From a virus (taxonomy: Duplodnaviria; Caudoviricetes), in IMG/VR virus record IMGVR_UViG_3300006092_000342, positions 32,222-96,221 of that record: DNA of 64,000 nt, one strand, 5' to 3'. A program made the position numbers and the translations under genes. Below the pieces are notes generated by a model. The model was not told the origin of the DNA and did not search any database. It saw only the letters and a program-made list of their open reading frames with translations. This document shows, one piece after another, positions 8,768-49,512 of the stretch; the first letter of the stretch is position 1, and the number at the start of each line of letters is the position of its first letter.

Positions 8768-11545
8768 TTATTTAAAAGGTTGGCCTGTAGATAATTGTAT
8801 TCTTTTTTGAGCACTTATAGGCCCTTGCAATTGTTTAAATCGCATTAATTTTTGAAATCGCTTATCGTTATAAAAGTTAGTAGGATTGCTAGAAATAATA
8901 CTAGAAATTTCATTATCTGCACTTTCTTCGGTAAGATCTCCAAATTCATCTACAGTTGTATTACTTAAAGTTTTAGTAGGAGTTGCAGTTGAAACAGTAG
9001 AATTTATCCCCTTTAAAAAGGAAGAAGTTCCTACAGGCATTCCGGTCATTCTTCCAAACTTATCCATAACTTTCATCAGGTGCTTTGACATAATTAAATT
9101 AGAAATCTCACCTTCTTTTCCAGATTCAAAAGCTTGTTTAGCTTGAGATTCTTGTGCAGATAAATTTCCTAAATTAGAAATAGTATTTACCAAAGGCCTG
9201 GTAACATTAAAAATATACTGATTTTGGAACTCTTTGTTTTTATTAACTTGTGCTGTATAATTTGCTAAATTCTGATCTTCTGCTGCAGCCCTTTGTCGAT
9301 CTAATTGATCATTACGGATTCCTGCATTTAAAACAGCTTTGTTTCGTTCGTTTACATTATTATTACTAGAAAGATAAAAAGGAACTTTTTGTGCACTTAC
9401 CCCTTGATTTTCTAATACTTGCATTTTTATAGCATCTTGATCCGCTAAACTATTATCATATACTCTTGCAATTCTACTTACATCCTCTGGTTTAAATTTG
9501 CGAGCTTGCAACTCAGAACTCGTACTGTAAATATCATTAGCAGGATTTTGTAAAGCAGAAGCAGCACTTGCAGCTATCCCAGACCCTACTGTAAATAATC
9601 GAGCTGTATTTAAATTTGAATTATCAAAGTTTTTATTTTCTAAGTCTTTTAATCTTTTATTAATGTAATCTTCTATTTCACTTCCTTCTTCATAACGTCT
9701 AACTTCCATTCCTTTCTTAGCTTCGGGAATTTCAGCTTGTTCCGGAGTATCTCCACGCATGAGAGTATTTAAATCTTTAACCAAATCTAAATAAGGAATT
9801 CTGCTTTTTTTATTTCCTTCCCAAGCCATTTTATCGAAAATATCGGTTTCAACATTTTCCGGTTTTTTGTATTTGTTTAAAACTTTCTTTAAAATAGCTA
9901 CAGGAGTTAAACCTTTTGCTTTACCATAAAATTCACCTGCAAGAGTTTTTTCTTGTGCCTCCGGAAGTTTCAGGTCTTCACTATAAAATGCAGGAGTTAA
10001 TTCGGTTTTTATTTTCTCTGCTAGCTTACGAGGCACTTTTAGATTTTTGTCATTACTGACAACATAAGCCCCGGGAGCTATAATATTTCCCATTTCATCC
10101 CTTTCCAAGGGAGTTAAAGTATCTGTTACTTTATTAGAATCTCCACTTGATTTATATTCTTTATGAGTCTTTTTTGCACCAGGTTTTGTTACATCATAAT
10201 TAGGATGGATTACTAATTCCTCTTTACTAACTTGTAAAGGCACCAAATTATTTGCAGGAACTATCTCCGGAGCTTCTCCACCTGATTGTCTTATAGGAAT
10301 TTCAGTAACATAATCTGCACTAGGAAACATTATCCGTTTAACCCCTGCTTTCATAACCTTCAATTTACCTACATTTGGAATTCCTAAAACATCAAACGGT
10401 GTATTTTTCATAGTTAGGTGATTGCTTGGAATAATATTAAAATCATTTTCGAAACTGTCAGTTCCGGGAGTATATCCGGTTTTGTTTACATTTCCTCCGG
10501 CTTCCATGTATGCTACTCTCCCTGTATCGCCATTAATACTATTTGCGGCTAACCAGGCTTTATTTTGTTGTTCAGTCTGATCAGCTTTATTAGTAGCATT
10601 AATTGCATACTTCATTAAAGAAGCTGCTCCCTGTGTAATAGCTCCTATAGGCCCTGCAGTCATAAATCCTCCGATAGTACCTAAAGCAGTTCCCCCTATA
10701 ACTCCTTTTTTATCTCCTTGTAACCCTACTCCATCTGCCTGACTACTGATTAGACTGCCTAAAGGTGCTGTATATTTTGTATAATCCTTCCCGGTAAGAA
10801 AACCTAAAACATCCCTTTTTTTACCCTTTTCTGGATCAAAAGGAATATCATCAAAATTACTAGAAGCGGAAGCCACACTTCCGCTGACGCTGGGATTAGG
10901 TTCCGGAATTGGGTTAAAAGGCTTTAATTCAGGTTGTAAAAAATCATCTTCAGGCCGGGAATCTTCTCCATAAGTAGGAGAACCTTCTTGTCGCTTTGCA
11001 ACACGAGCTTTGGGATTGAAAGTATTAACATCTTTCCCATCCTGAATGATCTTATACATTTGCTCAATGTAATCGGTTTCTGCTTGGCGACTTGGCAATG
11101 ATTTTGCCATGGTATAATCAAACAGATAATTCTTGGTTGTTTGCGGAAAATCCGGATCTCCAATCGCCTTTTTAATATTACCCTGATATTTCTGATATAA
11201 ACTCCGGGCTTTGGTAGGTCCCATATTATAAGCAGCAGCATTCCAATGTTCATCCTTAAACCCGTACTCTGCTAGAATTGAAGAGTATTTCATGCCCCCG
11301 GCTAAAGCTTCTGGTCCGGTTAAACTCTTGTAATCTCTATTTTTAAAATAACCTTTTTTTTGGAGTTCTTCGAAAGCAATAGGACTTAATTGAAGGGGGC
11401 CTGCTTTTCCATTAGTTAAATCTGGTTTGGTTAGGTGTGCACTGTCATGACGACTTTCTACCCAGGCTAATCTCTCATAATGTTTGGGAGACATTAAAAG
11501 TCCCCCGTATGGAGATCCTCCCTGTTGTAGATTGTCATGTTTCAT
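8768..11545 (-). CDS. Virion cargo protein with N-terminal lytic transglycosylase (SLT-like) domain
   Basis: WVES (catalytic Glu), GPLQL, AAAYNMGP and TKNY are the SLT motifs; the rest is low-complexity with recurrent xxGG/xxGS motifs. Confidence 0.75.
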   Translation of the reverse strand: MKHDNLQQGGSPYGGLLMSPKHYERLAWVESRHDSAHLTKPDLTNGKAGPLQLSPIAFEELQKKGYFKNRDYKSLTGPEALAGGMKYSSILAEYGFKDEHWNAAAYNMGPTKARSLYQKYQGNIKKAIGDPDFPQTTKNYLFDYTMAKSLPSRQAETDYIEQMYKIIQDGKDVNTFNPKARVAKRQEGSPTYGEDSRPEDDFLQPELKPFNPIPEPNPSVSGSVASASSNFDDIPFDPEKGKKRDVLGFLTGKDYTKYTAPLGSLISSQADGVGLQGDKKGVIGGTALGTIGGFMTAGPIGAITQGAASLMKYAINATNKADQTEQQNKAWLAANSINGDTGRVAYMEAGGNVNKTGYTPGTDSFENDFNIIPSNHLTMKNTPFDVLGIPNVGKLKVMKAGVKRIMFPSADYVTEIPIRQSGGEAPEIVPANNLVPLQVSKEELVIHPNYDVTKPGAKKTHKEYKSSGDSNKVTDTLTPLERDEMGNIIAPGAYVVSNDKNLKVPRKLAEKIKTELTPAFYSEDLKLPEAQEKTLAGEFYGKAKGLTPVAILKKVLNKYKKPENVETDIFDKMAWEGNKKSRIPYLDLVKDLNTLMRGDTPEQAEIPEAKKGMEVRRYEEGSEIEDYINKRLKDLENKNFDNSNLNTARLFTVGSGIAASAASALQNPANDIYSTSSELQARKFKPEDVSRIARVYDNSLADQDAIKMQVLENQGVSAQKVPFYLSSNNNVNERNKAVLNAGIRNDQLDRQRAAAEDQNLANYTAQVNKNKEFQNQYIFNVTRPLVNTISNLGNLSAQESQAKQAFESGKEGEISNLIMSKHLMKVMDKFGRMTGMPVGTSSFLKGINSTVSTATPTKTLSNTTVDEFGDLTEESADNEISSIISSNPTNFYNDKRFQKLMRFKQLQGPISAQKRIQLSTGQPFK

Positions 11546-14500
11546 TATCTGAGGCTGATTTTATTTTTGTCAACACATATTTTAAAATCGTTTGGACAGA
11601 TTTGTCTAGATCTTGTCGTACAAAACGATACCTTAAATACTCATCAAAAAAGACACTATCATTGGCATTTCCAAAAGTTTTGTCAAATTTAATTAAATCT
11701 TTTAACATATTGGGTAATAAGCCGTTAACCTTTTCCAATACTGCTGTAAGATCTTCTGGAGTAGATACCTTATTTAGAACTTGATAAAATTCATACTGCA
11801 TTGAATTATAACTTGTTACAGCTAAATCTCGAGGATCTGATACTGAATTTGGATTCTCGACAAAAGTTTTTAGTAATCCTGAACTTTGGTAATTATTTAA
11901 AATTCCGATATAATCAAAAAACTTATCAACTCTTCTCCATTTACCGGCAAATTCATCCCAAATCATATTTTTTAATCCTACTAGCGTGCTTGCATATTCA
12001 AAACCACGCCCGAATCGATTATTAAATTCCCGCGAAACTATGTCAATGATAAACGGGTATTTTATATCATAGAATACCAAATAAGAGTCTTTATTGTCAG
12101 CATGGCGCCATAATTTTCCATCATTCCAGTTATACATGTAGTTCCGATCCCACGTATAATAATCAGGAACATAGCTATGAAATCCTACAAAAAAACGTTT
12201 TTCTTTCCCTATGTAATAACTTAAAGTAAAACTCCTATTTTCAAACCATTCAGGATTCCCTAATTCAATCACGGTATTCGTACCTTTTAAATAAAAAATA
12301 TCATTGACTAGCTTAAGCTTTGTTGGATTTTTACATTTCCAGTCTTTTTTGGTTATTAAAATACGACTAAATCTATGATCAATTCCTAAAGAGAAACCGG
12401 TTTTATGCCCTTGACTAATACCCGGGTAATCTGGGAAATCTTCTGCTAAATACATGCGGATATTATTTTTAAAAAAAGATTTAAGGCCCCTAGTACTCAA
12501 TTCGTCATTTGAGCCTGTCCAATTATTGATCGTTCTAGCTTTCCGATCGATAAAGAAATGACCCCATTCTGAGGTAATACTAGCGCTAGGATCAATACAT
12601 CCTCCTTTACCTTCAGCAATATTACCAAAAACGTCATAAGGCTTTCCAAAGAAACCACCATCTCCTAACCGAGCTTTATCCCCATTACTGATATCTATGC
12701 TCATTTGGCCGAAACGTAAATCTTTTATTGAATCTGATGTTTGCGCCCAAACTCTGTTTCCCCAATGAATTAGATTTTTGATCAATCCAAAATTGGTATC
12801 TAAATCAATGTAATTATTAATTTTAAATCTTCGGAAAGCATCTCCTTTACTAGCAACATTTTGCTTATTGCCAATATAAACACGCCCGTTAAGCTCCCCT
12901 AAACATTTGCACAAATTATATCCAATAGGGACACCATAGTTATACCAGAGCAGTGTGAAACTTTTTGACCAATCATACTTATTATGTAAGTCATGAAACC
13001 CTTTTATCCCTCCAATTTTGGGACCGCCATCTTGATCTCCTAAACAGCTATCAATTCCTAATAATAAAATTAAATTTGTGTTTCTAGTAATACTTAAAAA
13101 AATCACATAAAAAGCTATTCCTAAACCAATCATTACATATCCTAACACGCTGGTTAAACTAATCGCAGACATCGCTCCATACATTAAAATACCTACTGCA
13201 AGTCTAATAATAGTGTTTGCCCATAGAACTAATTTATCTAATTTACTCAACCCTACAATAGACCAGTACATTCTAGATAACCACGAAATTTCTTGATCAG
13301 TCTTTGGCGGAAAATTAGGATCTAACTCCTGATTCTTAAGTTTTGGATAATAGATTTCATTGAAAGGAGCTCTTTCATCTCCCAAGATTCTAGCATGTAA
13401 ATTGACTTTACATTCTACCATAAAGGTATTGTTACTAGTAAGAACTCCAGGCCAATATTGGCTTAAACCTCTATATCCTTGAAAAGGTGTAGTACCATCC
13501 CAAGGATTTCCAGGACGAAGCATATTATTGTTTCTAGGATCATCTTCCCCGCTTTGTGGAGGATCTCCGCAATCACTTACGCCAAAAATTTGTTCAAAAA
13601 AGTTAGAAGGATTTACATTAAGACCAACCCGATCTGATACTACAGAATGTCTCTTTACGGAATATTGTCCAATATAAACATCCCCCGCTAATAAATTAAC
13701 AGCACCACAAATACTTTCCGTTTCTGTCAATAAATGAATATCTGCATATTTTGCATTCTCAATCCTTCCATATTGATTTGGAATATTTCGAAGAAGAACT
13801 GCATAATGACAAGATGCATTATGAATATCTGCTTCATGATATTTTCCATCTCCCATAAAAGAAAAATCACATGTATTATTGGCAGCGAGATTTCCAAAAT
13901 TTCGATTGCCATTATAGCTATTATCAGATAAAAAAGGATCAATTCCATGTTTTAATGTCGGAAAACTTCCAGGTTCTAATTCTAGATATACACTTGATTC
14001 CCGAAATTTATTCATTAAACTAAAAGTGAATCGATCTTCTTTATTGACTATCTTATTAGCTTCTGCATATACTGCAGCTTTTACACAATATAAACTTGGG
14101 ACTTCTCTATATTTAGGTTCTCTACGATTTTTTGCAAAAACACAAACTTCTTTAAAAACTGAATTATTGTTTACATCATACGTTACGGTAAGTCCATTTT
14201 GCAATACTGCAGAATATAAACAACCTTCGTTTGTTTCGACCTCAATAAAACACTCACAAACAAATGTAGAATTAAAGGGTAAGTTCTTAGTTGTATTACT
14301 ATCTCTGTAATTAGTTTTTCCTAATAAATCTATGGTTAAGTCATTACCTTGATTATCTAATAAACGTAGTTTAAAAGTTTTGATTCCTGTAGGAGCTGTT
14401 ATAATTTTTACTTCTCTTACTATAACAAGTCGATTAGCTGGTAATTGATTAAGCTGAATAAAAAAGCTAAAACAAAGTTCTTGTGTACAATAACCTTCCT

Positions 14501-17500
14501 CTACTAGTATTTTACTACTATTCCTATCATAATGGTTTAAATGAATCGCTTGTCTACATCCTTTTCTATTATAGTATCTCGCGGAATAACTATCTGGTTC
14601 AGTCATTTTACTGCTGGTCCCGTGTCTTCTACCCGAACCGTATATTTCTAGTGGACACTTTATTTGAGAAATATTTAAAGGCGGTTTTCCATATTGTGTA
14701 TCTGGACTAAAAAACACATATGCTGGAACTGTTGGAAGTATTCCTCCACGACTAGGAGTTCTAGAATTGTCATTTAACCATTTAATATCCATGCTAAACT
14801 TCTCTAAAGAGTTTACACCATGGTTAGGATACATGAAAGATTGAGCATGCAATTGTCCTTGGAAACAACCGACTAACTTTCCCTTTGCAATAACTCGACT
14901 ATTACTATCATCCCTGGGCTCCATACCAATCTTCCATTGGCGAATATTACATCCAGGTTTTATATAATCTTCAGAGTCTAGATCTGGAATTCCTGTAATA
15001 ATATATCCCAATAAAATAACATAAGCATCATTACTTTCTAAATTCGCAGGATCTAATCGATGTGGCACCCCATTTTGAAAACTAATATAATGAGGAAGTA
15101 CACTTTCATCCGGACCCAGAATATGTCGTATAGGCATTCCTGCATCTTGCCCATAGATAAAATTACCATTACAATCTTTATCTAATGGATAAGTCTCCGT
15201 ACTTTCCCAATATCCGCACTCTCCTTCTGCAAAAATTGGAAGATCATAATCAATAATATTGCAACCTTTTTCATCATAAATAGGAACTGGTTCGCATATT
15301 TTACTATTAAGAGCCTGACTTAAAGTAGGAGTAGTTTTACGATCAAATTGATAAACAGGAGGTTGATAAACCGGACGTTCATATATTTTAACTTCTGTCC
15401 CATCTCTGCGACGAATTATTTGTGTCTTTAGATCTAATTCGGATTCATTTTCCCAAGGTATTGTCCATTTTTTTCCAAAGAGTTGCATTAAAGGTTCACA
15501 CTTTTCCGGAATACAGCAAAGAATTGCTTTAAAATCAAAACTTTCCCAAGGATTTAAAGCTCCATATTCTGATAAGATACACGTATTACTATCATCGTTA
15601 TACCAAATAGGATTTTTTGGATTTGTAGGTAAACACCCCTGTTCCGGACAATCTGTATTACATCCTGCACATCCAGAAGGACAATCTTCTTTTTTACATT
15701 TAGTTAAACATTCTATATAACTAGAATAGTCTCCGTTATCATCAGGTAAACACCCCTGATCAGTACACCTAAAACGGCCATCTTGACTATATTCACAAGT
15801 ACTTCTACATGCCAATAAACTGCTGAATTCTCCATCCTCGGCAGCTTCACAAGCCCCATTAGTACATCGATACCTCTCTTGCCCATTTATATTGCAATGT
15901 TTTGAACACTCAAATAAGGTACTATAAGGCCCTTCGAGATCTGTAACACAATTTCCATTTGCCGGATCACATCTCCATTTACTAGTACGCTCTGCAGAAC
16001 AATTATCTTTACATGCTTGATAACTTCTCCATTCTCCATTTTGTCCTGCAGCAATACAACCGGTTTCTCTACAATCATATGTTTCTTCAGGCTCCTCATT
16101 ACATTCGCACCATCCTGTTATAGCATTTACGAAATCATCCAGAGTTCGACCAACAACAATTGAATTACCACTCATGCAGTCAAACTCAAAGCTGATATCA
16201 ATATAATCTTTAGGATCTCTATCGATTACTACGAGATGTACATTATATTGAGGTAAAGCAGCTGCTAATTGTCCCCAAACACCGCTGGCATCAAAAGCAT
16301 CACATGCAGGACAATTTGGAGTTTTATTATAAGTAATAACAACATCACAAACTCCGAGTCCTATCTGCTCGTTCCCCGTATTGTAATAACTACTGCCTGT
16401 ACTATTACCAGAACAACCTTGACTGCATCCGCCGGTACAAGAAGTACCAGAACACCCGCCAGAACATCCTGAACATTTTGCACCACAATTTTGACATAAT
16501 CCATTTTTACAACAACCTAATCCATAGCAACTTTTACTACAAGTAGCAGTGCATGGTCCTTGAACCGCTATACCTTGATAAACACTTCCCGGATTACAAT
16601 GACGACCTTTAGGACATCCTGAATTAGGATCGGTTTCATCTTGTTTATCTATTTTTAAACTAAATGCAGATACCTGGGAATCTTCCATCATTTCGTATGG
16701 ATTTCCACAATACCACTTAGTAACACTTGCAGTATTTTCTACTTGCCAGCGTTCCAACTCGCATTCAGTACAATTTCTAGGATCGGAAATAGGTATTTTT
16801 TCCCGATCATATGGAGTGGCTCGTCTCCCTGGAATATGACCAAACCTACTATAAGTACCATCACACCATACTTTTGAAAGCGCCAAACTCATAACCTCAT
16901 CTCGAGGCATGCTAGTGTATTTATGCGCTTCTGATAGAGGTGCTAATTTTGCAAACCACCTTACTCTTAAATTCCGACTATATTTAAGTATTGGAAAATT
17001 AGGTTCTCCATACGTATTAAATAGTACAGCATGTCCGTCTATAATATCAATATCTTCTCCCCTAATATAAGCTATGTCTTTATTTCGGATATCATCTATT
17101 GTAATCGGTATTCCGCTAAACTGTCTATGATTTGTAAGAAGAACTTGTTGTTTAGTTCTCGTGAAAGGAATTTTTGGTAGAAGTTTTACACTTACCTCAA
17201 AACCAATATTCCGAACAATTGCTATTTCTATAAACTCAAAATGTGCACTTCTATTTCCTTCTACAACAATATCGATTGCGTTTTCTGAAACTTCTCCCGG
17301 AATTTGATTAGGACTATCTAAAATTAAAGGATCACTTCCCCAAAAGAAATTTGTATGGTTATTATCCTCATCTGTTAAACGAACAAAAGCATAATATTTA
17401 CCTCCAACAAGATCTAATCCTCCATACTTTACTTGACGTAATTTAACCAAAGGACCGCAATCACAAGGCAATAGAAGTAAATCTTCATAAGTAACATCGC

Positions 17501-18944: not shown

Positions 18945-19405
18945 TAAACTCGGTGTAAAACTGTATCATAACTAGGAACAGATCTATCTGAATGACTTTC
19001 TAATATAAATTTACTTATAAGTCCTTTAATATTTTTATGCCATCGAAATTGGTAATAGTCTGAATTACGCATTTGTGTATATTGAAGTCTTGTATCCCAT
19101 TTTGTATAAAACATGTATCCAAAAGTTTCATAGTTTAATTTCATTATTAAAATCTTCTTTTGGACAGACTTCATTTTATCTCCATTGGTTAATAATCCAT
19201 GGCATGTATTTCTTGATTTACACTTAACAAGAGAAATAAAACCCATTCTTCTCGGAAAAATGAAAACCCCATTTTTATAAATAAACTCTTTGCAAATTAA
19301 AGTTAGGATAGATACAATTACTTTTTTCCAGACTTCAAACGTGTATTTATTATTGTCTGTAGCAATTATGTAATCTTCATATAAGATCTCAAAAGTTACG
19401 TCCAT
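18944..19405 (-). CDS. IHF/HU-like protein of the crAss tail module
   Basis: GVFIFPRRMGFISLVK resembles the HU/IHF arm; crAss-like phages carry an IHF-like gene at this position. Confidence 0.55.
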   Translation of the reverse strand: MDVTFEILYEDYIIATDNNKYTFEVWKKVIVSILTLICKEFIYKNGVFIFPRRMGFISLVKCKSRNTCHGLLTNGDKMKSVQKKILIMKLNYETFGYMFYTKWDTRLQYTQMRNSDYYQFRWHKNIKGLISKFILESHSDRSVPSYDTVLHRV

Positions 19406-19406
19406 C

Positions 19407-20901: not shown

Positions 20902-20913
20902 GATCTTTAATTT

Positions 20914-31428: not shown

Positions 31429-31430
31429 GA

Positions 31431-38508: not shown

Positions 38509-41025
38509 TTACGACGATTTTGACTTAGAAGCCTTGATTTTGTCAACTTCTAGTTCTTTTAATCGGACATAAGTATCAATCTTATGCATCCGTTCTTTAG
38601 CATCACTCAGGATTTTTTGAGTTTCTTCTGCATTTGATTGCCCATCTTGATCGACATCAAATCCCCGATCTAAGGTTTCACTTTGCTTATCCGCTTTATA
38701 TCGATCCGTTTCTAGCCTAGATTCTAATAAATCCTTCTCATGTTTCATTTTTTTATCAGTCTCTTCAGCTTTGCTTCTTAATAACATTTCTTGAAGTTGC
38801 TGCTGCATAGCTTGCTCTTGTTGTCTCTGTTTCTCCATCCGAGCTTTTGCTTTTCGACCTATATTTAGGATTTTTGCAATAGACTTTGTCATTCTGATCT
38901 CTACAACTTCATCAGGTTCTAAGTATCCTGGTTGAACTCTGTTTTGTTCTAAAAGATCTCGTTTAGTAGCATCCAATAATTGAGCATCTTCTACTGAGTT
39001 TACTATTTTGACGTTAAGACTTGCCGCGGCTAAATCCTTTGCAGATTCTTTTGTAAAACTTAAAAAAGCTTTATCGCCATCGTCTGTCATATATCTTGTT
39101 TCCAAGGGATTATTGGAATAGACTTGAATAGCAAGATCAAAATAATTTTGCATTACGTTTTCTTCGATTTGATCCATTAATAGTTCTTCATCTAGAGTCT
39201 GAGCGTTACTCATTTCTATTGAATTTTCTACATTGGCATTGTTTTTATAGGGACTTGGATATCCTAATCGATCAGGATTATAATTCATAGACATAACTGC
39301 ATCATTTCGAATTTCTCTTAAATGTTCTCTTCGTGCTGTTGCATCTACTACATTATTAAAATCAAGAATTTTAATTGCATTAAGCTGATCTACGGTCATT
39401 CCTAATTTCTGGGCATCAATTGGAAGTATTTTTGCGCTTTTTAGATTTCTAGAAAATTCTTCAGGGGTACTTGTGCCTAATACATTAGTTAGTATTTGTA
39501 AAACTTTTCCGATATTATTAGCAATGTCTTTATCTAAAAGACTCGAATGTAAATCATAACTATATTGCATAGTTACTGCTTTCATCATAGGAGATGTATT
39601 AGTAGTATTTCCTTGAAGATTTGATAATGTACCTCCCGAATATTGAAGTTTTACTTTATCAAAAGGATGTAAAACATTTGTATATTGATAAGGCACTCGT
39701 CTTTGTTGAGTAAAAATTCCATTAAAGAATTCTGTAGTTTCATAAATTTCATCAATATTTACCCAATCAAATTTTATATCTCCTTCCCGAGGATTCAATT
39801 GATATTCTGCACTTAAATAATAAATTCCGACAGAACCATCTTCCTCCCAACGATATACTTCTTTTACAGGACGTAATCCTCTTATTTGGCTATGAGCCAT
39901 TGGAACTCCGGATCCATGCATTAAAGGATTAGTCCCATGCATTCCTAAAGTTTTTATCCAATCCATCATTCCTTGCGTACTATTAGTATCAAAACTAACT
40001 TGACCCATAGGAACATTTCCTTTGACAACATTTGCTAAGAATTGTCCTTGGATATCATTATGGCTTCCATGAGGGTTTCCTGTTACTGGAAATTGATTAG
40101 CTAACTTTTGTTCTGCAGGAGTGAGTTGAGGATAATATTCCATATAAAATTGAATAGGACTCATGAAATCTCTATAAACAACTGCATCTGCATTTTCAAA
40201 AAATCGTTCTTCTGGTTTTTTATAGATTTTAGCTTTTAAATAATTCTTATGTTCTAAATAGGGTTTGTTAAATCGAACACCTTGTTTAAATAAACAAGCT
40301 CCTGAAATCATCATACTTTTGTATGCTTCTCTATAATTATCGTAAGCATTTCCTTGCTTAATCAAATAATTAAGAAAGCGAGCACCTCGTTCTTCTACCA
40401 CTGAAACATAATCTTTATTGAATTTTTCAAAAATAGCTTCAGGTAATAAAGCTTGGGCTTGCTCTTGGGCTTGAGATAATAATTGTTTGCGATCATCCGG
40501 TGGAAGAGCTAAAGGATCTTCTACTCCATATTTTTGCAATTCTTGCATATAGAGTTGATTAATTAAAGGATCTACTGTAGTTTCACTTAACCACTGGGCA
40601 AGTTTTTCATTAATTTTTTGTTTAACTAAATTAGCAGTATAACCACTTGTATCGATTATTGAAAATTTAGATCTTCGTGCTGCACGTTCTCCGACTCGAT
40701 GTGCTGCAATTGGACCAATAATTGGAAAATGTCTGAATTTAATATTTGCCGGCAATCCAAAGGGTTGCTCTTTTATTACTTTATTAAAAATTTTACGGCT
40801 GTTTGAAAATCCATTTGAATTGTATAGATCATAACAAATTTCTATTTTTCTTCGCTGAATTTCTGTAAGCTCATTATCTTCTCCATTTTTATAAATGGTG
40901 TGCAATTGCTTATAAACTTCTTTTCGGATTTCTAATCCTTTTTTTTCGGTCAGAGTGTGAATTAAAGAAGACAAATTATAATTAATCCCAAATGTCGACG
41001 TTGATTTCAAGGTTTTCATAATCAT
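38509..41025 (-). CDS. Portal protein
   Basis: 838 aa; HFPIIGP motif, KLQYSG, RLG, Gln-rich coiled C-terminus; directly after terL. Confidence 0.85.
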   Translation of the reverse strand: MIMKTLKSTSTFGINYNLSSLIHTLTEKKGLEIRKEVYKQLHTIYKNGEDNELTEIQRRKIEICYDLYNSNGFSNSRKIFNKVIKEQPFGLPANIKFRHFPIIGPIAAHRVGERAARRSKFSIIDTSGYTANLVKQKINEKLAQWLSETTVDPLINQLYMQELQKYGVEDPLALPPDDRKQLLSQAQEQAQALLPEAIFEKFNKDYVSVVEERGARFLNYLIKQGNAYDNYREAYKSMMISGACLFKQGVRFNKPYLEHKNYLKAKIYKKPEERFFENADAVVYRDFMSPIQFYMEYYPQLTPAEQKLANQFPVTGNPHGSHNDIQGQFLANVVKGNVPMGQVSFDTNSTQGMMDWIKTLGMHGTNPLMHGSGVPMAHSQIRGLRPVKEVYRWEEDGSVGIYYLSAEYQLNPREGDIKFDWVNIDEIYETTEFFNGIFTQQRRVPYQYTNVLHPFDKVKLQYSGGTLSNLQGNTTNTSPMMKAVTMQYSYDLHSSLLDKDIANNIGKVLQILTNVLGTSTPEEFSRNLKSAKILPIDAQKLGMTVDQLNAIKILDFNNVVDATARREHLREIRNDAVMSMNYNPDRLGYPSPYKNNANVENSIEMSNAQTLDEELLMDQIEENVMQNYFDLAIQVYSNNPLETRYMTDDGDKAFLSFTKESAKDLAAASLNVKIVNSVEDAQLLDATKRDLLEQNRVQPGYLEPDEVVEIRMTKSIAKILNIGRKAKARMEKQRQQEQAMQQQLQEMLLRSKAEETDKKMKHEKDLLESRLETDRYKADKQSETLDRGFDVDQDGQSNAEETQKILSDAKERMHKIDTYVRLKELEVDKIKASKSKSS

Positions 41026-43351
41026 GACTAAATAGTTTTAAAATTGAACTTTGTAATTCTTCATATTCTTTCTGATCTGGTTGTGCTGCATCCGTACTTA
41101 GCTCTTGCATTAACCAATACATAAGAACTAACATACAGGAAACTGTATCGAAATTACCTCCGGGTTTGTTATGCCATTTCATAACTTGTTCAATTTGCAT
41201 TCTACAATAGATAGTTTGCAAAGTTGTTACAGGGTCTCCAAACTGATCATAATGATGAATTTGCTTGTAAAAACCATTAAGTAAAGGTAATGCAATACTT
41301 TTTCTTTCAGTTGTCATTACGACACCATATTTGTCTTTAGCAGATTGTCCTTTACTTAAAGCAGCATGAGGTGTAGGTTGTAATAAATGTAGCCAACCTT
41401 TTAATCGAGCTAAAGTCATGACAGGGCCCACATTACCTTCAAATAATAAAAAGCATTCATAATACATACAAGCATAAAACATAATCTCTAATCCAGCTTC
41501 TGCTTCATCTCTTCTACATATAATAGAAAATACAAGAGTACCTTCTAAACATTCACTATCTACTTTTTTATCCGGAATTCCTTTATAAATATATCCGCAA
41601 AAAAGAGAAACTTTTCCTTCAGTACCATCATCTTTTATAGGATCACAAATAGCTTTATGTAAATTACCATAAATTTTTCGAGTAGGTAGAATCGCCGCAG
41701 GATGTTCATAAACTACAGGAACTCCATATAAACTTTTTTCTTTTAAATGGGCATCATGCTCTGTAAGCATTTTATCCTTTAATTTATTGTCTTTTTCCCA
41801 GTGAACTGTTTTCTTTTCTTCATTATATACAAAATTACCTGTCTCCGCTTTTTTAATATAATCTTTTGTACGGTCTAAATAGATTAAATGTTGTGCTGCT
41901 AAATCTTTTGGAAGAGTATAAGATTTACCCGACCCAAACATCTCAGAAGGAATTACAGGATATCTTATTTTTTCTTTTGCTAGTTTCTCTGGATCATTTT
42001 TTAATAATTCTCTAACTTCCATACGAGCGAGAGCTGCTCGATCTAAATCCGTATTTCCCATTTCGTCTTTAACCTTTCGGTCAGTATATAGCGCCGAAAG
42101 GAAAAAAGCTATTTTACCTTCCCCAGGTTCATATTCATTGTCAAAAGCAAGTATATTATTTATTTCAGGATTATAAAAAAAATAGTAAGCATCTCCAACT
42201 TTATCTAACTCTCCAGAAGTTCCGGAATCAAAGCTACTTCCGAATTTAGAATCAATTGCCATACAAGCTTCTTCTAGCTCTCTACATCTTTTATAGTTGG
42301 GATTTTTACCTACTTCATCTCGAGGCATAACAGTATAACGTCCTCCTGTACCTGGTGCTGGATTTTCAGTAGTAGATAATGCCATATGAATCTCTGCTCC
42401 ACTCGCTAATTCATTAGGAGTTTGTTTTCCCTCTTCATCTAAAGCAGTATATTTAATTACATGTTTGTAGGGTCGTTTTACATTATTACCTTCTAATTTC
42501 CCCTCAGATCTTTGATGAAAAGCTCCCGGATAAATTCTAGGTCCATCTCTATAAGCTCCTAATTCATTTTTTACATAATTAAGATTAAGAGTTAATACTT
42601 GAATATAATCGTTTAGATTTTTCTCTACAGGAGTTGAAATTAATATTCTTTTTCCCGCTTTCTTTCGAGCTGCTTTAAAATAATCCGAATTATACCTATG
42701 CATACCATAGGTTTTATATTCATGCAACGTACAACAAATTGCACTAAAGGAAGTTTTAGTACCTCCCCGACTTCCAAAAGTTAATAAATCTAAAGCGGTA
42801 TTTTCATATAAAGGTAAACCCATCGCTTCTGGATGGGTTTGTTTCAAATAAGTAAGGGCATCTACATATTCTTTAAATGTTCCGTTCTTTTTTAGATAAG
42901 ATCCGTTACTCATGTCAATGCGATATTTATCATCCTCTGTAAGAGGTTGCTTTCGAATCATTTTTAATAAAGGACGAAAACAACTTCGTTTAGGATCATC
43001 TTCACATCCACTAAACCCTCGACAAGTCAACCAATTGTAACTAAAAATCCATTCTAAGTCATGACAAAATGGTTTGATAGGTACAAAGGTTTGTCCTCGT
43101 TGAACAGGAACAACAGCGCCATTAACAAAATAAAAAAGACAAGGAGGCATGTAACGCCAGCCTCCTAATGTTTTGTTTTTCTTCTTGATACCGTCAAATC
43201 CCCAAAGCCCTTCAACCATTTTTTGTTCGAAACGACCCCAATAATCGCGATATAATGCAGATTCTGGATGTAAATCAGTGGGATGATCTCTATCTACAAA
43301 TGGAGATAAATCATAAATAGTAGGGAGTAATTTTACTTTTTTAATCTCCAT
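40982..43351 (-). CDS. terL: Terminase large subunit
   Basis: Walker A-like GSRGGTKTS, Walker B-like RDEVG, coupling motif GTSG; nuclease residues in ICDPI, FEGN, NFDTV. Confidence 0.9.
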   Translation of the reverse strand: MEIKKVKLLPTIYDLSPFVDRDHPTDLHPESALYRDYWGRFEQKMVEGLWGFDGIKKKNKTLGGWRYMPPCLFYFVNGAVVPVQRGQTFVPIKPFCHDLEWIFSYNWLTCRGFSGCEDDPKRSCFRPLLKMIRKQPLTEDDKYRIDMSNGSYLKKNGTFKEYVDALTYLKQTHPEAMGLPLYENTALDLLTFGSRGGTKTSFSAICCTLHEYKTYGMHRYNSDYFKAARKKAGKRILISTPVEKNLNDYIQVLTLNLNYVKNELGAYRDGPRIYPGAFHQRSEGKLEGNNVKRPYKHVIKYTALDEEGKQTPNELASGAEIHMALSTTENPAPGTGGRYTVMPRDEVGKNPNYKRCRELEEACMAIDSKFGSSFDSGTSGELDKVGDAYYFFYNPEINNILAFDNEYEPGEGKIAFFLSALYTDRKVKDEMGNTDLDRAALARMEVRELLKNDPEKLAKEKIRYPVIPSEMFGSGKSYTLPKDLAAQHLIYLDRTKDYIKKAETGNFVYNEEKKTVHWEKDNKLKDKMLTEHDAHLKEKSLYGVPVVYEHPAAILPTRKIYGNLHKAICDPIKDDGTEGKVSLFCGYIYKGIPDKKVDSECLEGTLVFSIICRRDEAEAGLEIMFYACMYYECFLLFEGNVGPVMTLARLKGWLHLLQPTPHAALSKGQSAKDKYGVVMTTERKSIALPLLNGFYKQIHHYDQFGDPVTTLQTIYCRMQIEQVMKWHNKPGGNFDTVSCMLVLMYWLMQELSTDAAQPDQKEYEELQSSILKLFSHDYENLEINVDIWD

Positions 43352-44504: not shown

Positions 44505-44942
44505 TTAATTAAAAAGTTTATTAAAATCTTCTTCTGAGATATCTTGAATTTTCTTTCGAGGTTTCTGAAATATTTTTAATTCAAAATGATTATCTCTTGC
44601 AAATTTTTGAAAATCAGGGAGCATTCCAAACCATTTACCTTTATGGCAATAATTATTTGCCGGTAATATATTAGCAGGAGTAGTACATCCACAACCATCA
44701 CAGAAACCTCTTTGCATACAATCTGAACATTGTAAATGTCGATAGACTATATAAAAAGCACGGTCTACTTCTGAGATAGGAACTTCTGTTTTTTCTCCGA
44801 GAATTTTTAAAATCGGATATTCGAGTAAATGGTAAATGATATAAATAAAGCGCTTGATATCTGCAATATAATATCCAACAAGGAAAGCTTTCCATTTATA
44901 TGGAGAAATTAAATCTTTATATTTCAGCCTTGTTATTTTCAT
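44505..44942 (-). CDS. Metal-binding protein, CxxC...CxxCGC...C.KGKW (DUF6171-like)
   Basis: RHLQCSDC-MQRGF-CDGCGC...YCHKGKW. Confidence 0.55.
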   Translation of the reverse strand: MKITRLKYKDLISPYKWKAFLVGYYIADIKRFIYIIYHLLEYPILKILGEKTEVPISEVDRAFYIVYRHLQCSDCMQRGFCDGCGCTTPANILPANNYCHKGKWFGMLPDFQKFARDNHFELKIFQKPRKKIQDISEEDFNKLFN

Positions 44943-46383: not shown

Positions 46384-46391
46384 ATTGGGTT

Positions 46392-46399
46392 CAAAATTA
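46392..46399 (-). promoter_or_regulatory. Bacteroidota -7 element TAATTTTG at the head of the structural operon
   Basis: Matches TAnnTTTG, 8 nt before ATG 46383. Confidence 0.6.
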
Positions 46400-46435
46400 A
46401 AATTTTTTACTTTAATTTACATAAAATTTTATTAT

Positions 46436-47254
46436 ATGATTTCATTTGACGAAATAAACCACATCTATCGCCATGATTCTCAGATAATTACCTCGGTTAC
46501 CCAAAGGCTAAAAACTTTTGCAAAAAGCTTTGAATCTCATTATTGGGCCGCTTATGGCGTTGTAAAAAATACCATGGGCGAAGCTGAATTCCAAGCTGCT
46601 AAACCTACAAAAATTCCAGATATCAAGTGGTTAGAAGAACAAATGCTTAATTTTCCAGATGTTGATTTTTCTAAATTAATTGAAGCTCAGGAAAATAGTT
46701 GGGAGGTAGGAGGTTCCAAAGCAAGTATAAAAGGTACTGCAGGTCATAAAGAAGAAGAAAAGCTAGCTTTAGAGGCAAAACAAAACAGAAGTCCTTTTAA
46801 CATGAAAATTTACGAAGTTCGAACTAGTGCTTATGTCCGGGAAGATGGCCTCAAAATAAGTAACATAGAGGATTTGGCTTTACTAGAAGATGGAATGTAT
46901 CCTGAGCAATTATGTTGGTATCTCCCTTTTTATATGGGAACCTCTGATCGAGTTTATATTGAAACTATTAATAGCAAACGTTATGTCGATCTTGTAGAGT
47001 TTAAATTTGTAAAAACTATTGATAAGACTTCCCAAGAAAAAATGCACTATCCCATTCAGCATGTAGCTAACTGTAGATATAACCGGTTTGCTCTACAACT
47101 AACCATGTATGCTAAATGTTTTGAAATTGCAGGATTTAATGTTCGGAAACTAGCGATTCTTCACAATACGAAGTACTTACCAGTACCTTATATGGAATTA
47201 GAAATGACTAGGATTGAACAGTATTTAAGGGATTCCCAAGAGGGGTTTTTATAA
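46436..47254 (+). CDS. PD-(D/E)XK exonuclease
   Basis: FDEINHIY, SVTQ, GTAGH, GTSD, VEFK and QLTMY motifs; real ATG at 46436. Confidence 0.85.
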   Translation: MISFDEINHIYRHDSQIITSVTQRLKTFAKSFESHYWAAYGVVKNTMGEAEFQAAKPTKIPDIKWLEEQMLNFPDVDFSKLIEAQENSWEVGGSKASIKGTAGHKEEEKLALEAKQNRSPFNMKIYEVRTSAYVREDGLKISNIEDLALLEDGMYPEQLCWYLPFYMGTSDRVYIETINSKRYVDLVEFKFVKTIDKTSQEKMHYPIQHVANCRYNRFALQLTMYAKCFEIAGFNVRKLAILHNTKYLPVPYMELEMTRIEQYLRDSQEGFL

Positions 47255-48854
47255 CAAATTGCCGGTATAAAAGAGCTTCTGTTAATAAGATCATAGTTGC
47301 TACTGAAACTCCATTTAATAAAGCTTCTTTTATAACTTTAAAAGGATCTATAATACCTTCTTGAATTAAGTCACATTCTTGTCCTGTTAAAGAATTGATT
47401 CCTACAGAATAAGAATAATGAAATAGTCTTTGTAAAACTTTTACTCCGGACTCATCTAGGACTAATGGAATAGTATTGGGATAGTCTGCATTTTTTTGAA
47501 TAGTACTTAATGGAAGTAATAAACAAGAACAAAAAGCTATCCCTATTTCATCATCTTCCGATAATTGTTCTCGGATTTCTAAAGCGGCTCTTCCTAGGGG
47601 ATATCCAGCACCTGGTAAAATTCCTTCAGCTAAAGCTGCTTTACAAGCTTGTTTAGCATCATCTACTCGGTCTTTCTTTTCTCGCAATTCTAAGTCAGTA
47701 GAGGCTCCTACATTAATTACGGCAACGCCTCCCAATAAACGGGTTAAACGTGCTTTTGCAAAATCTCTTTCAACACTACTTACAGTCTTTCCGATTTCAG
47801 TCTGAATTTCTGATACTAATTGATCTATAACTTCTTTTTTCCCATGGCCTCCCACAATAGTAGTATGAACTTCATTAACTTCAATCTTTTCTGCAAAACC
47901 AATATCAGAAGGTTTTAAGTTAGCTAAACTTTCGCGATCACACTCAATCACACGACCTCCTGTAGTTGCTGCAATATCTTGAAGACATGCTAGCTGATAT
48001 CTAATAGGTTTAGGTGTTTTTACACATACTCCTTGCCATCCATTAGAAATATAATTTTCAACTAAGATAGTTTGAACTCTTAGGTCATAATCATTTGCAA
48101 TAATTAAGATAGGTTGCCTTTTGTTATGGAAATTGTCTAAAGCATTTTGAATTTCATTTAAGCTAAATAATTTTCCATGAATTAAAAGGATATGACATTT
48201 ATCATATACTGCAGAAGCTATTTTAGGAGCATTGACAAAATAAGGACTAGTAAATCCGGCATTAATTTGAGCACCTCTTACCATATCAACATAAGTTTCA
48301 ATTGAAGAAGATTCTGCAATACTTACAATACCGTGTTTACCTATATCAAAAACAGCTTCTCCAATAAGTTTACCTAAACTAGGAGAATTATTACTAGCTA
48401 TTGTAGCAATTTGTACAAGTTTTTCTTTTGTAACATCCTTATCTACATATTTCGAAAGAATCTCTAGAGTTTTTTCGGCTAATTCATCCCATCTTTTTTT
48501 GATAATAACCGGTGAATTTTCTTTATTAGTTAATTCAATACCAATTTGAATTAATCCTTGAGCAAGAACTGTAGCAGTTGTTGTTCCATCTCCGGCACGT
48601 TCTGCTGTTTTTGCAGCTGCCTCTCGAATCATCATTGCTCCCATATTTTCGATAGGATCTAAGAGGATTACATTTTGAGCTACAGTTACTCCATCTTTTG
48701 TAGTATTTAATCTTTCATTCTCTCGTTTAATAACAACAGTTCTTCCAGAAGGACCTAATGTAACTTTAACGGCATTTGCTAACTTATTTATACCGATGAT
48801 TATTTTATCTCGAGCTTCCTTTCCTAAGAGTAAATCGTAATTATTTGTTGACAT
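47208..48854 (-). CDS. groL: Chaperonin GroEL (phage-encoded)
   Basis: VKVTLGPSGR, TKDGVTVA, AGDGTTTATVLA, EKKDRVDDA, GIIDP; no C-terminal GGM tail. Confidence 0.97.
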   Translation of the reverse strand: MSTNNYDLLLGKEARDKIIIGINKLANAVKVTLGPSGRTVVIKRENERLNTTKDGVTVAQNVILLDPIENMGAMMIREAAAKTAERAGDGTTTATVLAQGLIQIGIELTNKENSPVIIKKRWDELAEKTLEILSKYVDKDVTKEKLVQIATIASNNSPSLGKLIGEAVFDIGKHGIVSIAESSSIETYVDMVRGAQINAGFTSPYFVNAPKIASAVYDKCHILLIHGKLFSLNEIQNALDNFHNKRQPILIIANDYDLRVQTILVENYISNGWQGVCVKTPKPIRYQLACLQDIAATTGGRVIECDRESLANLKPSDIGFAEKIEVNEVHTTIVGGHGKKEVIDQLVSEIQTEIGKTVSSVERDFAKARLTRLLGGVAVINVGASTDLELREKKDRVDDAKQACKAALAEGILPGAGYPLGRAALEIREQLSEDDEIGIAFCSCLLLPLSTIQKNADYPNTIPLVLDESGVKVLQRLFHYSYSVGINSLTGQECDLIQEGIIDPFKVIKEALLNGVSVATMILLTEALLYRQFVIKTPLGNPLNTVQS

Positions 48855-48894: not shown

Positions 48895-49512
48895 TTAAGC
48901 AGAATATGCTTTCATATCTGGCATTAAAGGAAATATCATTCCTCGTTTAATATCTAAAAAATAGCGCTCTCCTTTATGAATGGAACCTTGACCTGGTATA
49001 TGTAAAAAGAGAACTTCATCTACTATACCATTATTTGGATTATCAAATAATTTACGAGTTTCATAATTAAAATCAGAATCTTTAAAAAAGATTTCCACAA
49101 GCTCAAATACAACTCTTTCTATTTTGTCCTGGTTTTTATATTCATAAATTCTATAATGAGTTGGAGGTAATTTTTTTTGATCCTGTATAAATTTCTCCCA
49201 ATAAGTAAGTTCAATTTTTTTATCTGTCAATAGTTTTCGAATATCATGAATCGAAGGCCCGGTCTTATGATAAATTTGTTCCCCATTTTCAAAACAACGT
49301 ATAGCTGGAATACTTTTAACATCTTTAAAAATAGAAGTATTTCTGTCAATTTCATCTACTTCAATCTGATAAATAACTTCTTCTGGAAACTCTTGAAGTA
49401 TATTTTCAATCTCTGGTTTTAAATTACGGCAAGGACCGCACCACTCAGCACCTAAATATACGATTGTAAATTTCTTAGGGATTTCAAAGTTGTTTGGATT
49501 AATTTTGTTCAT
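48895..49512 (-). CDS. Thioredoxin with ~110 aa C-terminal extension
   Basis: AEWCGPC active site and SIP cis-Pro loop. Confidence 0.9.
   Translation of the reverse strand: MNKINPNNFEIPKKFTIVYLGAEWCGPCRNLKPEIENILQEFPEEVIYQIEVDEIDRNTSIFKDVKSIPAIRCFENGEQIYHKTGPSIHDIRKLLTDKKIELTYWEKFIQDQKKLPPTHYRIYEYKNQDKIERVVFELVEIFFKDSDFNYETRKLFDNPNNGIVDEVLFLHIPGQGSIHKGERYFLDIKRGMIFPLMPDMKAYSA

What the first reader, a model, noticed from the sequence alone, without database searches (positions are those of the whole stretch)
11535..49512. Candidate disulfide-armoured virion with its own folding/redox kit
Seen: cysteine is sharply partitioned. Proteins predicted to face outward are loaded with Cys (fibre ~93 Cys in 478 aa, muzzle insertions, auxiliary capsid 22 Cys, genes at 28-32 kb). 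MCP and portal have 2 each, the scaffold has 0, and the four cargo ORFs have 2 in total. Upstream of terL on the same strand lie GroEL, a GroES-like protein, a WCGPC thioredoxin fusion and two small Cys-motif proteins. Known: phage particles assemble in the reducing cytoplasm and are usually Cys-poor; poxviruses solve this problem with a dedicated E10/A2.5/G4 pathway. Inference: this lineage may keep Cys-rich parts reduced and chaperoned during assembly and lock them by oxidation at or after lysis, or it uses massive Zn binding. No Erv/DsbB-type oxidase is visible in the window.
Basis: partly seen in the sequence, partly recalled or inferred. Interest (0 to 1): 0.85.

Follow-up and report, generated by a model that had tools for sequence, protein, structure and literature searches.

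The report
Cysteine-armoured crass-like phage, no dedicated kit
An uncultured crass-like phage loads its outer capsid layer, tail tip and fibre with cysteine and keeps its shell and injected proteins almost cysteine-free, but relatives show this does not depend on the phage's own GroEL and thioredoxin genes.

Summary
The cysteine partition is real and very strong. Tail and decoration proteins hold 345 Cys in 6,884 aa (5.0%). MCP, portal, scaffold and two neighbours hold 0.38%, cargo proteins 0.09%, and the rest of the genome 1.5%. The 550-aa protein is a fold homologue of the ΦcrAss001 auxiliary capsid protein. The first ~500 residues of the fibre (97 Cys in 478 aa) model as an array of short beta-hairpins whose nearest solved folds are EGF-like repeats. 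In its family almost only Cys is invariant. Structural disulfides in the released virion are the most likely reading. They are already documented, on a small scale, in ΦcrAss001, Milano and Pam3.

- 18 IMG/VR records carry a homologous fibre (97-153 Cys). Only one has GroEL and none has a thioredoxin above the Pfam cut-off.
- A DTR-complete relative with neither gene has a 2,141-aa protein with 277 Cys.
- Two GroEL-bearing relatives are Cys-poor.
- No Erv, DsbB, VKOR, DsbA, glutaredoxin or GroES is detectable.

GroEL-Trx is a lineage-restricted accessory cassette. The scan had already noted the Cys-free cargo on this genome. The finding is an extreme variant of a known theme, and how the disulfides form remains open.

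The parts
23701..28065 (-). 1,454-aa tail fibre or appendage protein. Residues ~36-513 are an array of Cys-rich modules (97 Cys); the C-terminal ~930 aa has 43 Cys.
   Evidence: The family alignment A2 has almost only Cys invariant. The AF2 model of the N-terminal part (pLDDT 75) is made of short beta-hairpins, and its nearest PDB folds are EGF-like arrays. No Pfam or PHROG hit.
11535..17960 (-). Muzzle protein (2,141 aa, 80 Cys) with a Cys-rich insertion at residues ~440-865. The insertion holds a CPAC segment and four ~33-aa 4-Cys repeats.
   Evidence: PF25731 crAss_MUZ 5.3e-7. Cys profile. Relatives align to residues 1-439 and 864-2141 only.
32218..33870 (-). Auxiliary capsid protein (AUX) homologue, 550 aa, 22 Cys. 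In ΦcrAss001 AUX forms the outer capsid layer.
   Evidence: The AF2 model (pLDDT 74.7) hits 7qof_a, a 333-residue chain of the ΦcrAss001 capsid, at E 3.6e-10, prob 1.00. Its position matches gp36. Orthologues hold 12-34 Cys.
28065..32218 (-). Five Cys-rich ORFs between AUX and the fibre (291, 669, 168, 170 and 91 aa; 69 Cys in all). By position they are candidates for tail-hub and fibre-docking proteins.
   Evidence: Orthologues keep the Cys. The identity with THA/THB rests on synteny only: no sequence match to PDB or to gp38.
17976..20129 (-). Ring protein 1 (8 Cys in 322 aa), a 153-aa ORF, and ring protein 2 (5 Cys in 240 aa).
   Evidence: PF25702 Ring_2 2.8e-16; PF24228 Ring_1 6e-4, below its cut-off. 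In ΦcrAss001, R1 and R2 are disulfide-linked (PMC10172136).
34597..41025 (-). Cys-poor shell block: 332-aa ORF (1 Cys), MCP (2), 411-aa scaffold-position ORF (0), portal (2).
   Evidence: PF23898 Crass_capsid 6.5e-16. Counts. Orthologues are equally Cys-poor.
2..11545 (-). Four cargo or ejection protein ORFs with 2 Cys in 3,859 aa. The first runs on upstream of the window to 2,918 aa.
   Evidence: The same depletion is seen in relatives and in ΦcrAss001 gp45-gp49.
47208..48854 (-). Phage GroEL (548 aa).
   Evidence: PF00118 2e-53; phrog_5725 4.5e-115. Patchy among relatives.
48895..49512 (-). Thioredoxin with a WCGPC site (residues ~13-90) plus a non-conserved ~110-aa tail.
   Evidence: PF00085 2.4e-13. 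Sequence. Orthologue comparison. The tail has no Pfam hit.
44505..44942 (-). 145-aa protein with a conserved CxxC...CxxCxC...C motif, probably metal-binding.
   Evidence: Orthologues with 6-8 Cys occur in relatives with no GroEL/Trx within 10 kb upstream of terL (L006, L007) or none in the record held (G002, G027) (G027).
40982..43351 (-). Large terminase. It served as the anchor for finding relatives.
   Evidence: phrog_6681 6e-36. Homologues.

Best explanation
The window is the virion and packaging half of an uncultured crass-like podovirus; the whole record is 96 kb.

Parts exposed to the medium have been loaded with cysteine. These are the AUX capsid decoration, the ring and hub-position proteins, an insertion in the muzzle, and a long fibre that begins with ~500 residues of EGF-like modules. 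These Cys most likely form intra- and inter-chain disulfides once the particle is outside the reducing cytoplasm. That would stiffen the surface parts and protect them from proteases. It is the mechanism seen in ΦcrAss001 (tail hubs, R1-R2, portal-vertex dimer), Milano and Pam3, taken much further here.

The reverse also holds. The capsid shell, the portal, the scaffold-position ORF and above all the giant cargo proteins avoid cysteine. In ΦcrAss001 the cargo proteins are thought to be threaded, partly unfolded, through the tail. A stray cross-link would plausibly jam ejection.

The trait belongs to a wide clade and is independent of the GroEL-thioredoxin cassette upstream of terL. That cassette is a lineage-restricted accessory module: a general folding aid plus a reductase-type thioredoxin. 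Oxidation therefore probably needs no phage-encoded enzyme.

Shown: the partition, its conservation across the clade, the AUX identity, and the lack of association with GroEL/Trx. Inferred: the disulfide chemistry, its timing, and the reason for the Cys-free cargo.
For: - The partition statistics are.
- AUX identity by fold: 7qof_a at E 3.6e-10.
- In the fibre family, invariant columns are nearly all Cys, plus a few Gly and Pro.
- Consecutive Cys are mostly 1-5 residues apart, with many CxC and some CC, and there are only 6 His in residues 36-513.
- An EGF_2-type pattern occurs twice, against 0.07 expected in shuffles.
- The AF2 model is all short hairpins. Its top PDB matches are extracellular disulfide-bonded EGF arrays: DLL1, NELL, integrin beta, Jagged, Pfs25.
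- ΦcrAss001 has experimentally seen tail and vertex disulfides (PMC10172136). It shows a weak form of the same partition: THA 11/215, R2 5/225, cargo 0-2 Cys per 534-2,341 aa.
- Milano and Pam3 virions lose stability or their fibres in DTT (PMC10491603; PMC9942802).
- Independence from GroEL/Trx:
  - Of 18 records with a fibre homologue (97-153 Cys), one has GroEL and none has Trx above the cut-off.
  - DTR-complete G035 has neither, yet carries proteins with 277/2,141 and 125/1,912 Cys.
  - GroEL-bearing G013 and G015 have one or two Cys-rich proteins each, of ~190-250 aa.
  - A 2x2 table of the near-complete records gives p = 1.
- No Erv in any of 23 relatives, and no glutaredoxin above the cut-off.
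- GroEL occurs in 253 cultured phage records of many hosts.
Against: - No disulfide has been observed.
- The EGF-like fold matches are weak (best E 6.7e-4, prob 0.28), and Pfam finds no EGF domain.
- How roughly 50 disulfides per fibre N-terminus form correctly without an oxidase or isomerase is unexplained.
- Trx next to GroEL is conserved in the closest relatives (terL 43-61% identity). A helper role within that narrow lineage cannot be excluded.
- Many relatives are incomplete contigs, and the sample of complete genomes is small and phylogenetically non-independent.
- The Erv search had no positive control.
Confidence: 0.58

Rival explanations
1. GroEL (with a hidden co-chaperonin), the WCGPC thioredoxin and small Cys proteins are a dedicated kit. 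The kit keeps Cys-rich virion parts reduced and soluble during assembly. Alternatively, with thioredoxin running in reverse when its reductase is limiting, it oxidises them. In function this would parallel the poxvirus E10/A2.5/G4 pathway.
For: - Trx sits directly upstream of GroEL, on the same strand as the structural genes.
- The Trx-GroEL order is kept in relatives with terL 43% and 61% identity.
- The CxxC site is kept in all three Trx orthologues.
- The record holds no ribonucleotide reductase, a usual thioredoxin client.
Against: - Relatives with equally or more Cys-rich fibres, AUX and muzzle lack both genes. They include DTR-complete G035.
- L006 and L007 keep 17-27 Cys in AUX with no GroEL or Trx within 10 kb upstream of terL.
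- GroEL-bearing G013 and G015 are Cys-poor.
- GroEL and Trx occur separately, in G017 and G001.
- No Cpn10 is found.
- No Erv-type oxidase is found.
The 145-aa Cys-motif protein is conserved where GroEL and Trx are absent.
- The Trx tail is not conserved.
Confidence: 0.12
2. The Cys-rich modules are metal-thiolate (Zn, Cu or Fe) binding arrays, like metallothioneins or zinc ribbons. They fold in the reducing cytoplasm around metal ions, so no oxidation is needed.
For: - ~20% Cys with CxC, CC and CxxC spacings and few aromatic residues in fibre residues 36-513.
- No oxidase anywhere in the clade.
- This would solve the cytoplasmic-folding problem.
Against: - No His, Asp or Glu is conserved beside the Cys.
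- The predicted modules are regular beta-hairpins at pLDDT 75-88, and their nearest solved folds are disulfide-bonded EGF arrays, not metal sites.
- In AUX and the 669-aa protein the Cys are scattered, many as close doublets, through otherwise ordinary domains.
- The homologous ΦcrAss001 tail parts use disulfides.
Confidence: 0.12
3. The Cys act as a redox switch, not as armour. Surface disulfides hold the muzzle and fibres in a locked state. They are reduced on contact with the host envelope or periplasm to trigger ejection. The CPAC thioredoxin-like segment in the muzzle might do this.
For: - In Pam3, DTT detaches the fibres and triggers tail contraction.
- Qβ is described as destabilised by reduction (cited in PMC13576161).
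- The ESM Atlas places the CPAC segment (window 16086-16373) nearest to Trx/Grx clusters, at 0.85-0.88.
Against: - The CPAC segment has no Pfam match.
- It is absent from all relatives' muzzle proteins.
- Atlas scores below 0.9 are leads only.
- Most Cys lie in the fibre and AUX, far from the ejection channel.
Confidence: 0.08

Closest known systems
ΦcrAss001 (Kehishuvirus primarius) virion, PDB 7QOF-7QOL, PMC10172136
   Same: - Same gene order and parts: terL, portal, MCP, AUX, hub position, R2, R1, muzzle, cargo.
- Disulfides stabilise the tail barrel, the fibre hubs and the portal-vertex dimer.
- Cargo proteins are nearly Cys-free.
   Different: - ΦcrAss001 AUX has 1 Cys against 22 here, the muzzle 10 against 80, and the fibres ~1.2% Cys against 9.7%.
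- It has no EGF-like array.
- It comes from the gut; this lineage is known only from metagenomes.
- No cultured phage matches the fibre.
Agrobacterium phage Milano and cyanophage Pam3 (disulfide-networked virions)
   Same: Cys is enriched in structural proteins, and the disulfides are needed for robustness or fibre attachment, as shown with DTT.
   Different: - Both are myoviruses, unrelated to this phage.
- Milano's 2.4% Cys in structural proteins was reported as unusually high. Here the exterior set has 5.0%, and single proteins in the clade reach 9.7-12.9%.
- Neither paper, in the passages read, reports a Cys-free cargo counterpart.
Poxvirus E10R/A2.5L/G4L cytoplasmic disulfide pathway
   Same: Both face the same problem: viral surface proteins with disulfides are made in a reducing cytoplasm. 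Both include a thioredoxin-fold CxxC protein.
   Different: No Erv1/ALR FAD oxidase is present in this record or in 23 relatives. The thioredoxin is absent from most Cys-rich relatives.
Phage-encoded group I chaperonins (e.g. Flavobacterium, Cellulophaga, Vibrio and Bacteroides phages; Pseudomonas phage EL from my own knowledge)
   Same: A full-length Cpn60 with no recognisable Cpn10 partner. Best cultured-phage matches are 35-39% identical.
   Different: None of the characterised cases known to me is tied to Cys-rich virions. Here too the distribution is patchy and unrelated to Cys load.
Eukaryotic EGF-like repeat arrays (Delta/Jagged, NELL, integrin beta I-EGF, Pfs25)
   Same: Rod of small hairpin modules with ~6-8 Cys each, CxC and C-x-C-x2-G-aromatic motifs, and the nearest solved folds.
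   Different: No Pfam EGF hit. The fold matches are weak. The protein is made in a bacterial cytoplasm, not in a secretory pathway.

Membership tests
Crassvirales-type virion module | Crass-type MCP, muzzle protein, ring proteins and terL/portal in conserved order | tested here: met
   PF23898 6.5e-16, PF25731 5.3e-7, PF25702 2.8e-16, terL phrog_6681 6e-36. The order matches ΦcrAss001.
Crassvirales-type virion module | Auxiliary capsid protein (gp36 fold) encoded downstream of MCP | tested here: met
   AF2 model against 7qof_a: E 3.6e-10, prob 1.00, TM by target 0.49.
Poxvirus-like viral cytoplasmic disulfide pathway | Erv1/ALR-family FAD sulfhydryl oxidase | tested here: not met
   PF04777 has no match at E<=1 in the 96-kb record and none in 23 relatives (where no control genome matched either).
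Poxvirus-like viral cytoplasmic disulfide pathway | Thioredoxin-fold CxxC relay protein present wherever the Cys-rich substrates are | tested here: not met
   Trx is present here. It is absent above the cut-off from all 18 records with fibre homologues and from 20 of 21 terL relatives.
Bacterial periplasmic Dsb/VKOR oxidation system | DsbA, DsbB or VKOR homologue | tested here: not met
   PF01323, PF02600 and PF07884: no match at E<=1.
GroEL/GroES chaperonin pair | Cpn60 subunit | tested here: met
   PF00118 2e-53 over positions 1-485 of 490.
GroEL/GroES chaperonin pair | Cpn10 co-chaperonin | tested here: not met
   PF00166 has no match at E<=1 in six frames. The 258-aa candidate has no Pfam hit at E<=10 and no Atlas support. 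A gp31-like analogue without sequence similarity cannot be excluded.
Thioredoxin (reductase type) | Thioredoxin fold with a WCGPC active site | tested here: met
   PF00085 2.4e-13; WCGPC at residues 24-28. Orthologues carry WCGPC and WCPPC.
EGF-like domain arrays | Match to an EGF sequence profile | tested here: not met
   No Pfam family at E<=0.01 for the fibre. The A4 profile finds no PDB sequence.
EGF-like domain arrays | EGF-like fold and Cys framework | tested here: inconclusive
   The top Foldseek hits are EGF arrays, but the best is E 6.7e-4 with prob 0.28. There are two EGF_2-type motifs against 0.07 expected. The pattern was written from memory.
Disulfide-stabilised phage virions (ΦcrAss001, Milano, Pam3) | Cystines observed in particles; loss of integrity on reduction | not testable with these tools
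   The phage is uncultured, and model coordinates were not returned.
Metallothionein-like or zinc-binding arrays | Cys clusters with conserved metal ligands and no disulfide-type fold | tested here: inconclusive
   No His, Asp or Glu is conserved beside the Cys, and the model is hairpin-rich. Metal content cannot be computed.

The most novel reading that the evidence does not exclude
A wide clade of environmental crass-like phages builds its capsid decoration, tail tip and fibres from EGF-like and other Cys frameworks. These would need tens to more than a hundred disulfides per chain; single proteins hold up to 277 Cys. The proteins are made in a bacterial cytoplasm, and no known oxidase, isomerase or thioredoxin is encoded. 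If so, an undescribed route of oxidative folding exists for phage particles. It could be assembly-templated air oxidation after lysis, a collapse of host redox control late in infection, or a virion-embedded thiol-disulfide module such as the CPAC segment of this muzzle. The same clade would be under strong selection to purge Cys from everything that passes through the tail.
Probability: 0.25. Interest if true: 0.8.

Novelty: new variant of a known kind. Interest (0 to 1): 0.5.

Why it matters
Disulfide cross-links in phage particles have been found one structure at a time and on a small scale. Here a whole uncultured clade of crass-like phages shows the principle at an extreme. Exterior proteins hold 5-13% Cys, beside cargo proteins of up to 5,419 residues with zero or one Cys. 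That makes two questions testable:
- How can disulfide-rich extracellular-type modules be produced from a reducing bacterial cytoplasm without a viral oxidase?
- Is cysteine avoidance a general signature of proteins that must be threaded through a phage tail? If so, it would give a cheap way to predict cargo proteins.

The result also removes an attractive but wrong link. Phage GroEL and thioredoxin should not be annotated as a virion redox kit on the basis of this genome.

Tried and rejected
- A single-protein scan of IMG/VR with terL found only one short relative. The alignment-based scan was needed.
For L003-L009 only the +/-10 kb around terL could be judged.
No environment metadata or read-level evidence was obtained, so the oxic-habitat idea is untested.
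- Model coordinates are not exposed. Cys-Cys distances could not be measured.
- Presence/absence covariation of Cys columns in AUX gave only three independent co-varying pairs: 95-522, 174-346 and 375-463. The other pairs come from a domain deletion shared by three short forms.
- PDB sequence searches with the 170-, 168- and 669-aa proteins and the fibre profile found nothing. BLAST of the 170-aa protein against ΦcrAss001 THA was negative. The hub assignment therefore rests on synteny alone.
- Pfam at E<=10 found nothing for the muzzle CPAC segment, the 4-Cys repeats, the 258-aa ORF, the thioredoxin tail or the 145-aa protein.
- The fibre N-terminus has no match in 50,697 cultured-phage records.
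This was uninformative, because cellular GroELs at ~40% identity swamp the list.
- The SprB-repeat resemblance in the fibre C-terminus is visible by eye only. Pfam does not detect it, so it is not claimed.


Full report
**What the window is**

The window is bases 32,222-96,221 of a 96,221-bp IMG/VR virus record. Profile searches identify a crass-like podovirus:
- muzzle protein (PF25731), 11535-17960(-)
- ring protein 2 (PF25702), and weakly ring protein 1
- an amidase and an M43 peptidase
- crass-type MCP (PF23898), 35618-37192(-)
- large terminase, 40982-43351(-)
- GroEL (PF00118, 2e-53), 47208-48854(-)
- thioredoxin (PF00085, 2.4e-13; WCGPC), 48895-49512(-)

The gene order matches ΦcrAss001 from terL to the cargo block. 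The lineage is remote from cultured phages. The MCP finds only Leptolyngbya phage Lbo-JY46, at 27% identity. The fibre finds nothing.

**The observation**

Per-ORF counts confirm the partition.

| Class | Cys / residues | Cys % | Fisher p against the rest |
|---|---|---|---|
| Exterior and tail set: muzzle, R1, R2, three neighbouring ORFs, fibre, five ORFs at 28-32 kb, AUX | 345 / 6,884 | 5.0 | 8e-46 |
| MCP, scaffold-position ORF, portal, two neighbouring ORFs | 9 / 2,343 | 0.38 | 1.7e-6 |
| Six giant cargo-position ORFs, including two upstream of the window | 8 / 8,501 | 0.09 | 1.5e-32 |
| All other ORFs of the record | 198 / 13,363 | 1.48 | - |

- The fibre has 141 Cys, 97 of them within residues 36-513.
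- The muzzle Cys cluster in residues ~440-865. Relatives align only to residues 1-439 and 864-2141, and they have about half as many residues in between. This block is a lineage-specific expansion.

**Where the Cys-rich proteins sit**

- The 550-aa protein was modelled from 17 orthologues (pLDDT 74.7). Its best PDB match is a 333-residue chain of the ΦcrAss001 capsid, at E 3.6e-10 and prob 1.00. By length and gene position that chain is the auxiliary capsid protein gp36, which forms the outer capsid layer (PMC10172136).
- Ring and muzzle assignments come from Pfam.
- The small Cys-rich ORFs at 30.9-32.2 kb lie where ΦcrAss001 has its tail-hub genes. No sequence similarity supports this.
- The exterior location of the fibre is inferred from its place in the tail module and its domain make-up.

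**Disulfide or metal**

In two alignments of the fibre family (19 and 15 sequences, 25-57% identity) the invariant columns are almost all Cys, with a few Gly and Pro and no His. Consecutive Cys are mostly 1-5 residues apart, and CxC is frequent. An EGF_2-type pattern, written from memory, occurs twice against 0.07 expected.

The AF2 model of residues 1-520 (pLDDT 75, pTM 0.30) is a chain of short hairpins. Its nearest solved folds are extracellular EGF-like arrays: DLL1, NELL, integrin beta, Jagged and Pfs25. These matches are weak: the best is E 6.7e-4 with prob 0.28.

ΦcrAss001 has experimentally seen disulfides between hub proteins, between hubs and rings, between R1 and R2, and in the portal-vertex dimer. 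Milano and Pam3 virions lose stability or their fibres in DTT.

I therefore read the exterior Cys as structural disulfides of the released particle. Metal-thiolate binding is the main rival.

**The kit hypothesis**

*Closest relatives.* Relatives with terL 61% and 43% identity keep Trx, GroEL, an opposite-strand exonuclease and terL in the same order.

*Next relatives out.* At terL 32% identity (L006, L007) the head-gene order is the same and the Cys are kept. AUX has 17 and 27 Cys, and the small downstream proteins have 10/158, 14/164 and 10/162. Neither has GroEL or Trx within 10 kb upstream of terL.

*terL relatives in IMG/VR.* A terL alignment recovered 80 IMG/VR loci. Of 21 records that could be searched whole, GroEL is in three and Trx in one, never together.

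*Records with a fibre homologue.* A fibre alignment recovered 18 IMG/VR records whose fibres hold 97-153 Cys. GroEL is in one of them (G031). Trx is above the cut-off in none.

*Genome by genome.*
- G035 is complete with terminal repeats and has neither gene. It encodes a 2,141-aa protein with 277 Cys, a fibre with 125, and an AUX with 23.
- GroEL-bearing complete genomes G013 and G015 have only one or two Cys-rich proteins of ~190-250 aa. That is close to the ΦcrAss001 baseline, where THA has 11 Cys in 215 aa.
- A 2x2 table of the near-complete records shows no association (p = 1).

*Other redox genes.* No Erv, and no glutaredoxin above the cut-off, is found in 23 relatives. The window's own record has no Erv, DsbB, VKOR, DsbA, glutaredoxin, ribonucleotide reductase or Cpn10.

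*Remaining items.*
- GroEL is common in cultured phages: 253 records, many from Flavobacterium, Cellulophaga, Vibrio and Bacteroides hosts.
- The 258-aa 'GroES-like' ORF has no support.
- The thioredoxin tail is not conserved.
- The 145-aa Cys-motif protein is conserved in relatives with no GroEL/Trx in the DNA held.

**The complement**

Cysteine avoidance in cargo proteins holds across the clade.
- G035: 4,289 aa with 0 Cys, and 885 aa with 0.
- G031: 5,027 aa with 0.
- G027: 5,419 aa with 1.
- ΦcrAss001 shares it: gp46 0/534, gp47 1/2,341, gp49 1/1,349.

The ΦcrAss001 study proposes that cargo is extruded partly unfolded through the tail. I infer that Cys is purged because oxidative cross-links would block extrusion. 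I confirmed the depletion and did not test the tether idea.

**Verdict**

Its core mechanism, disulfide stabilisation of exposed virion parts, is a known kind taken to an extreme in an uncultured clade. The proposed phage-encoded folding/redox kit is not supported. The open problem is how such disulfide-rich modules are oxidised correctly.

Noticed in passing
window 2-11545 and upstream (record 20779-35303); G035, G031, G027, G013: Giant cargo-position proteins are almost free of cysteine across the whole clade. Examples are 5,027 aa with 0 Cys, 4,289 aa with 0, 5,419 aa with 1 and 3,513 aa with 1. ΦcrAss001 gp45-gp49 show the same. This may be a usable signature of proteins that pass through the tail.
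   Followed up: partly
window 16086-16373 (-), muzzle residues ~530-625: A segment with strand-CPAC-helix order lies inside the Cys-rich muzzle insertion. The ESM Atlas puts it nearest to thioredoxin and glutaredoxin clusters (0.85-0.88, a lead only). It has no Pfam match, and there is no CPxC in the muzzle proteins of seven relatives.
   Followed up: partly
window ~15619-16085 (-), muzzle residues ~626-780; G035 74309-80734: Four tandem ~33-aa repeats with 4 Cys each lie in the muzzle. They match repeats in the 2,141-aa, 277-Cys protein of G035 (E 1e-5). This suggests a Cys-repeat module shared among tail proteins of the clade.
   Followed up: partly
window 44505-44942 (-): A 145-aa protein with a CxxC...CxxCxC...C motif lies upstream of terL. 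It is conserved (6-8 Cys) in eight relatives, including ones without GroEL or Trx. It is probably a metal-binding packaging or regulatory protein.
   Followed up: partly
window 46385-47254 (+) against 47208-48854 (-): An exonuclease-like gene on the opposite strand converges on GroEL and overlaps its 3' end by ~47 nt. The arrangement is kept in relatives L003 and L005.
   Followed up: no
terL homologues P0018, P0006, P0010; G027 85209-88625: Several relatives have enlarged terL genes (1,049-1,266 aa). One carries intein and homing-endonuclease Pfam domains, so inteins seem to invade terL in this clade.
   Followed up: no
window 21126-22545 (-): An M43 (pappalysin-family) metallopeptidase gene overlaps the start of an amidase endolysin gene within the tail module. 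Both are moderately Cys-rich (10/279 and 5/197).
   Followed up: no
fibre homologue P0040: One fibre homologue is deposited as a protein of a Saprospiraceae MAG, on a 141-kb contig. This is a possible host hint (Bacteroidota) or a mis-binned phage contig.
   Followed up: no
G001 28823-29050; G017 14046-15533: In relatives, the slot just upstream of terL holds either thioredoxin alone (G001) or GroEL alone (G017). It looks like a variable accessory-gene site.
   Followed up: partly
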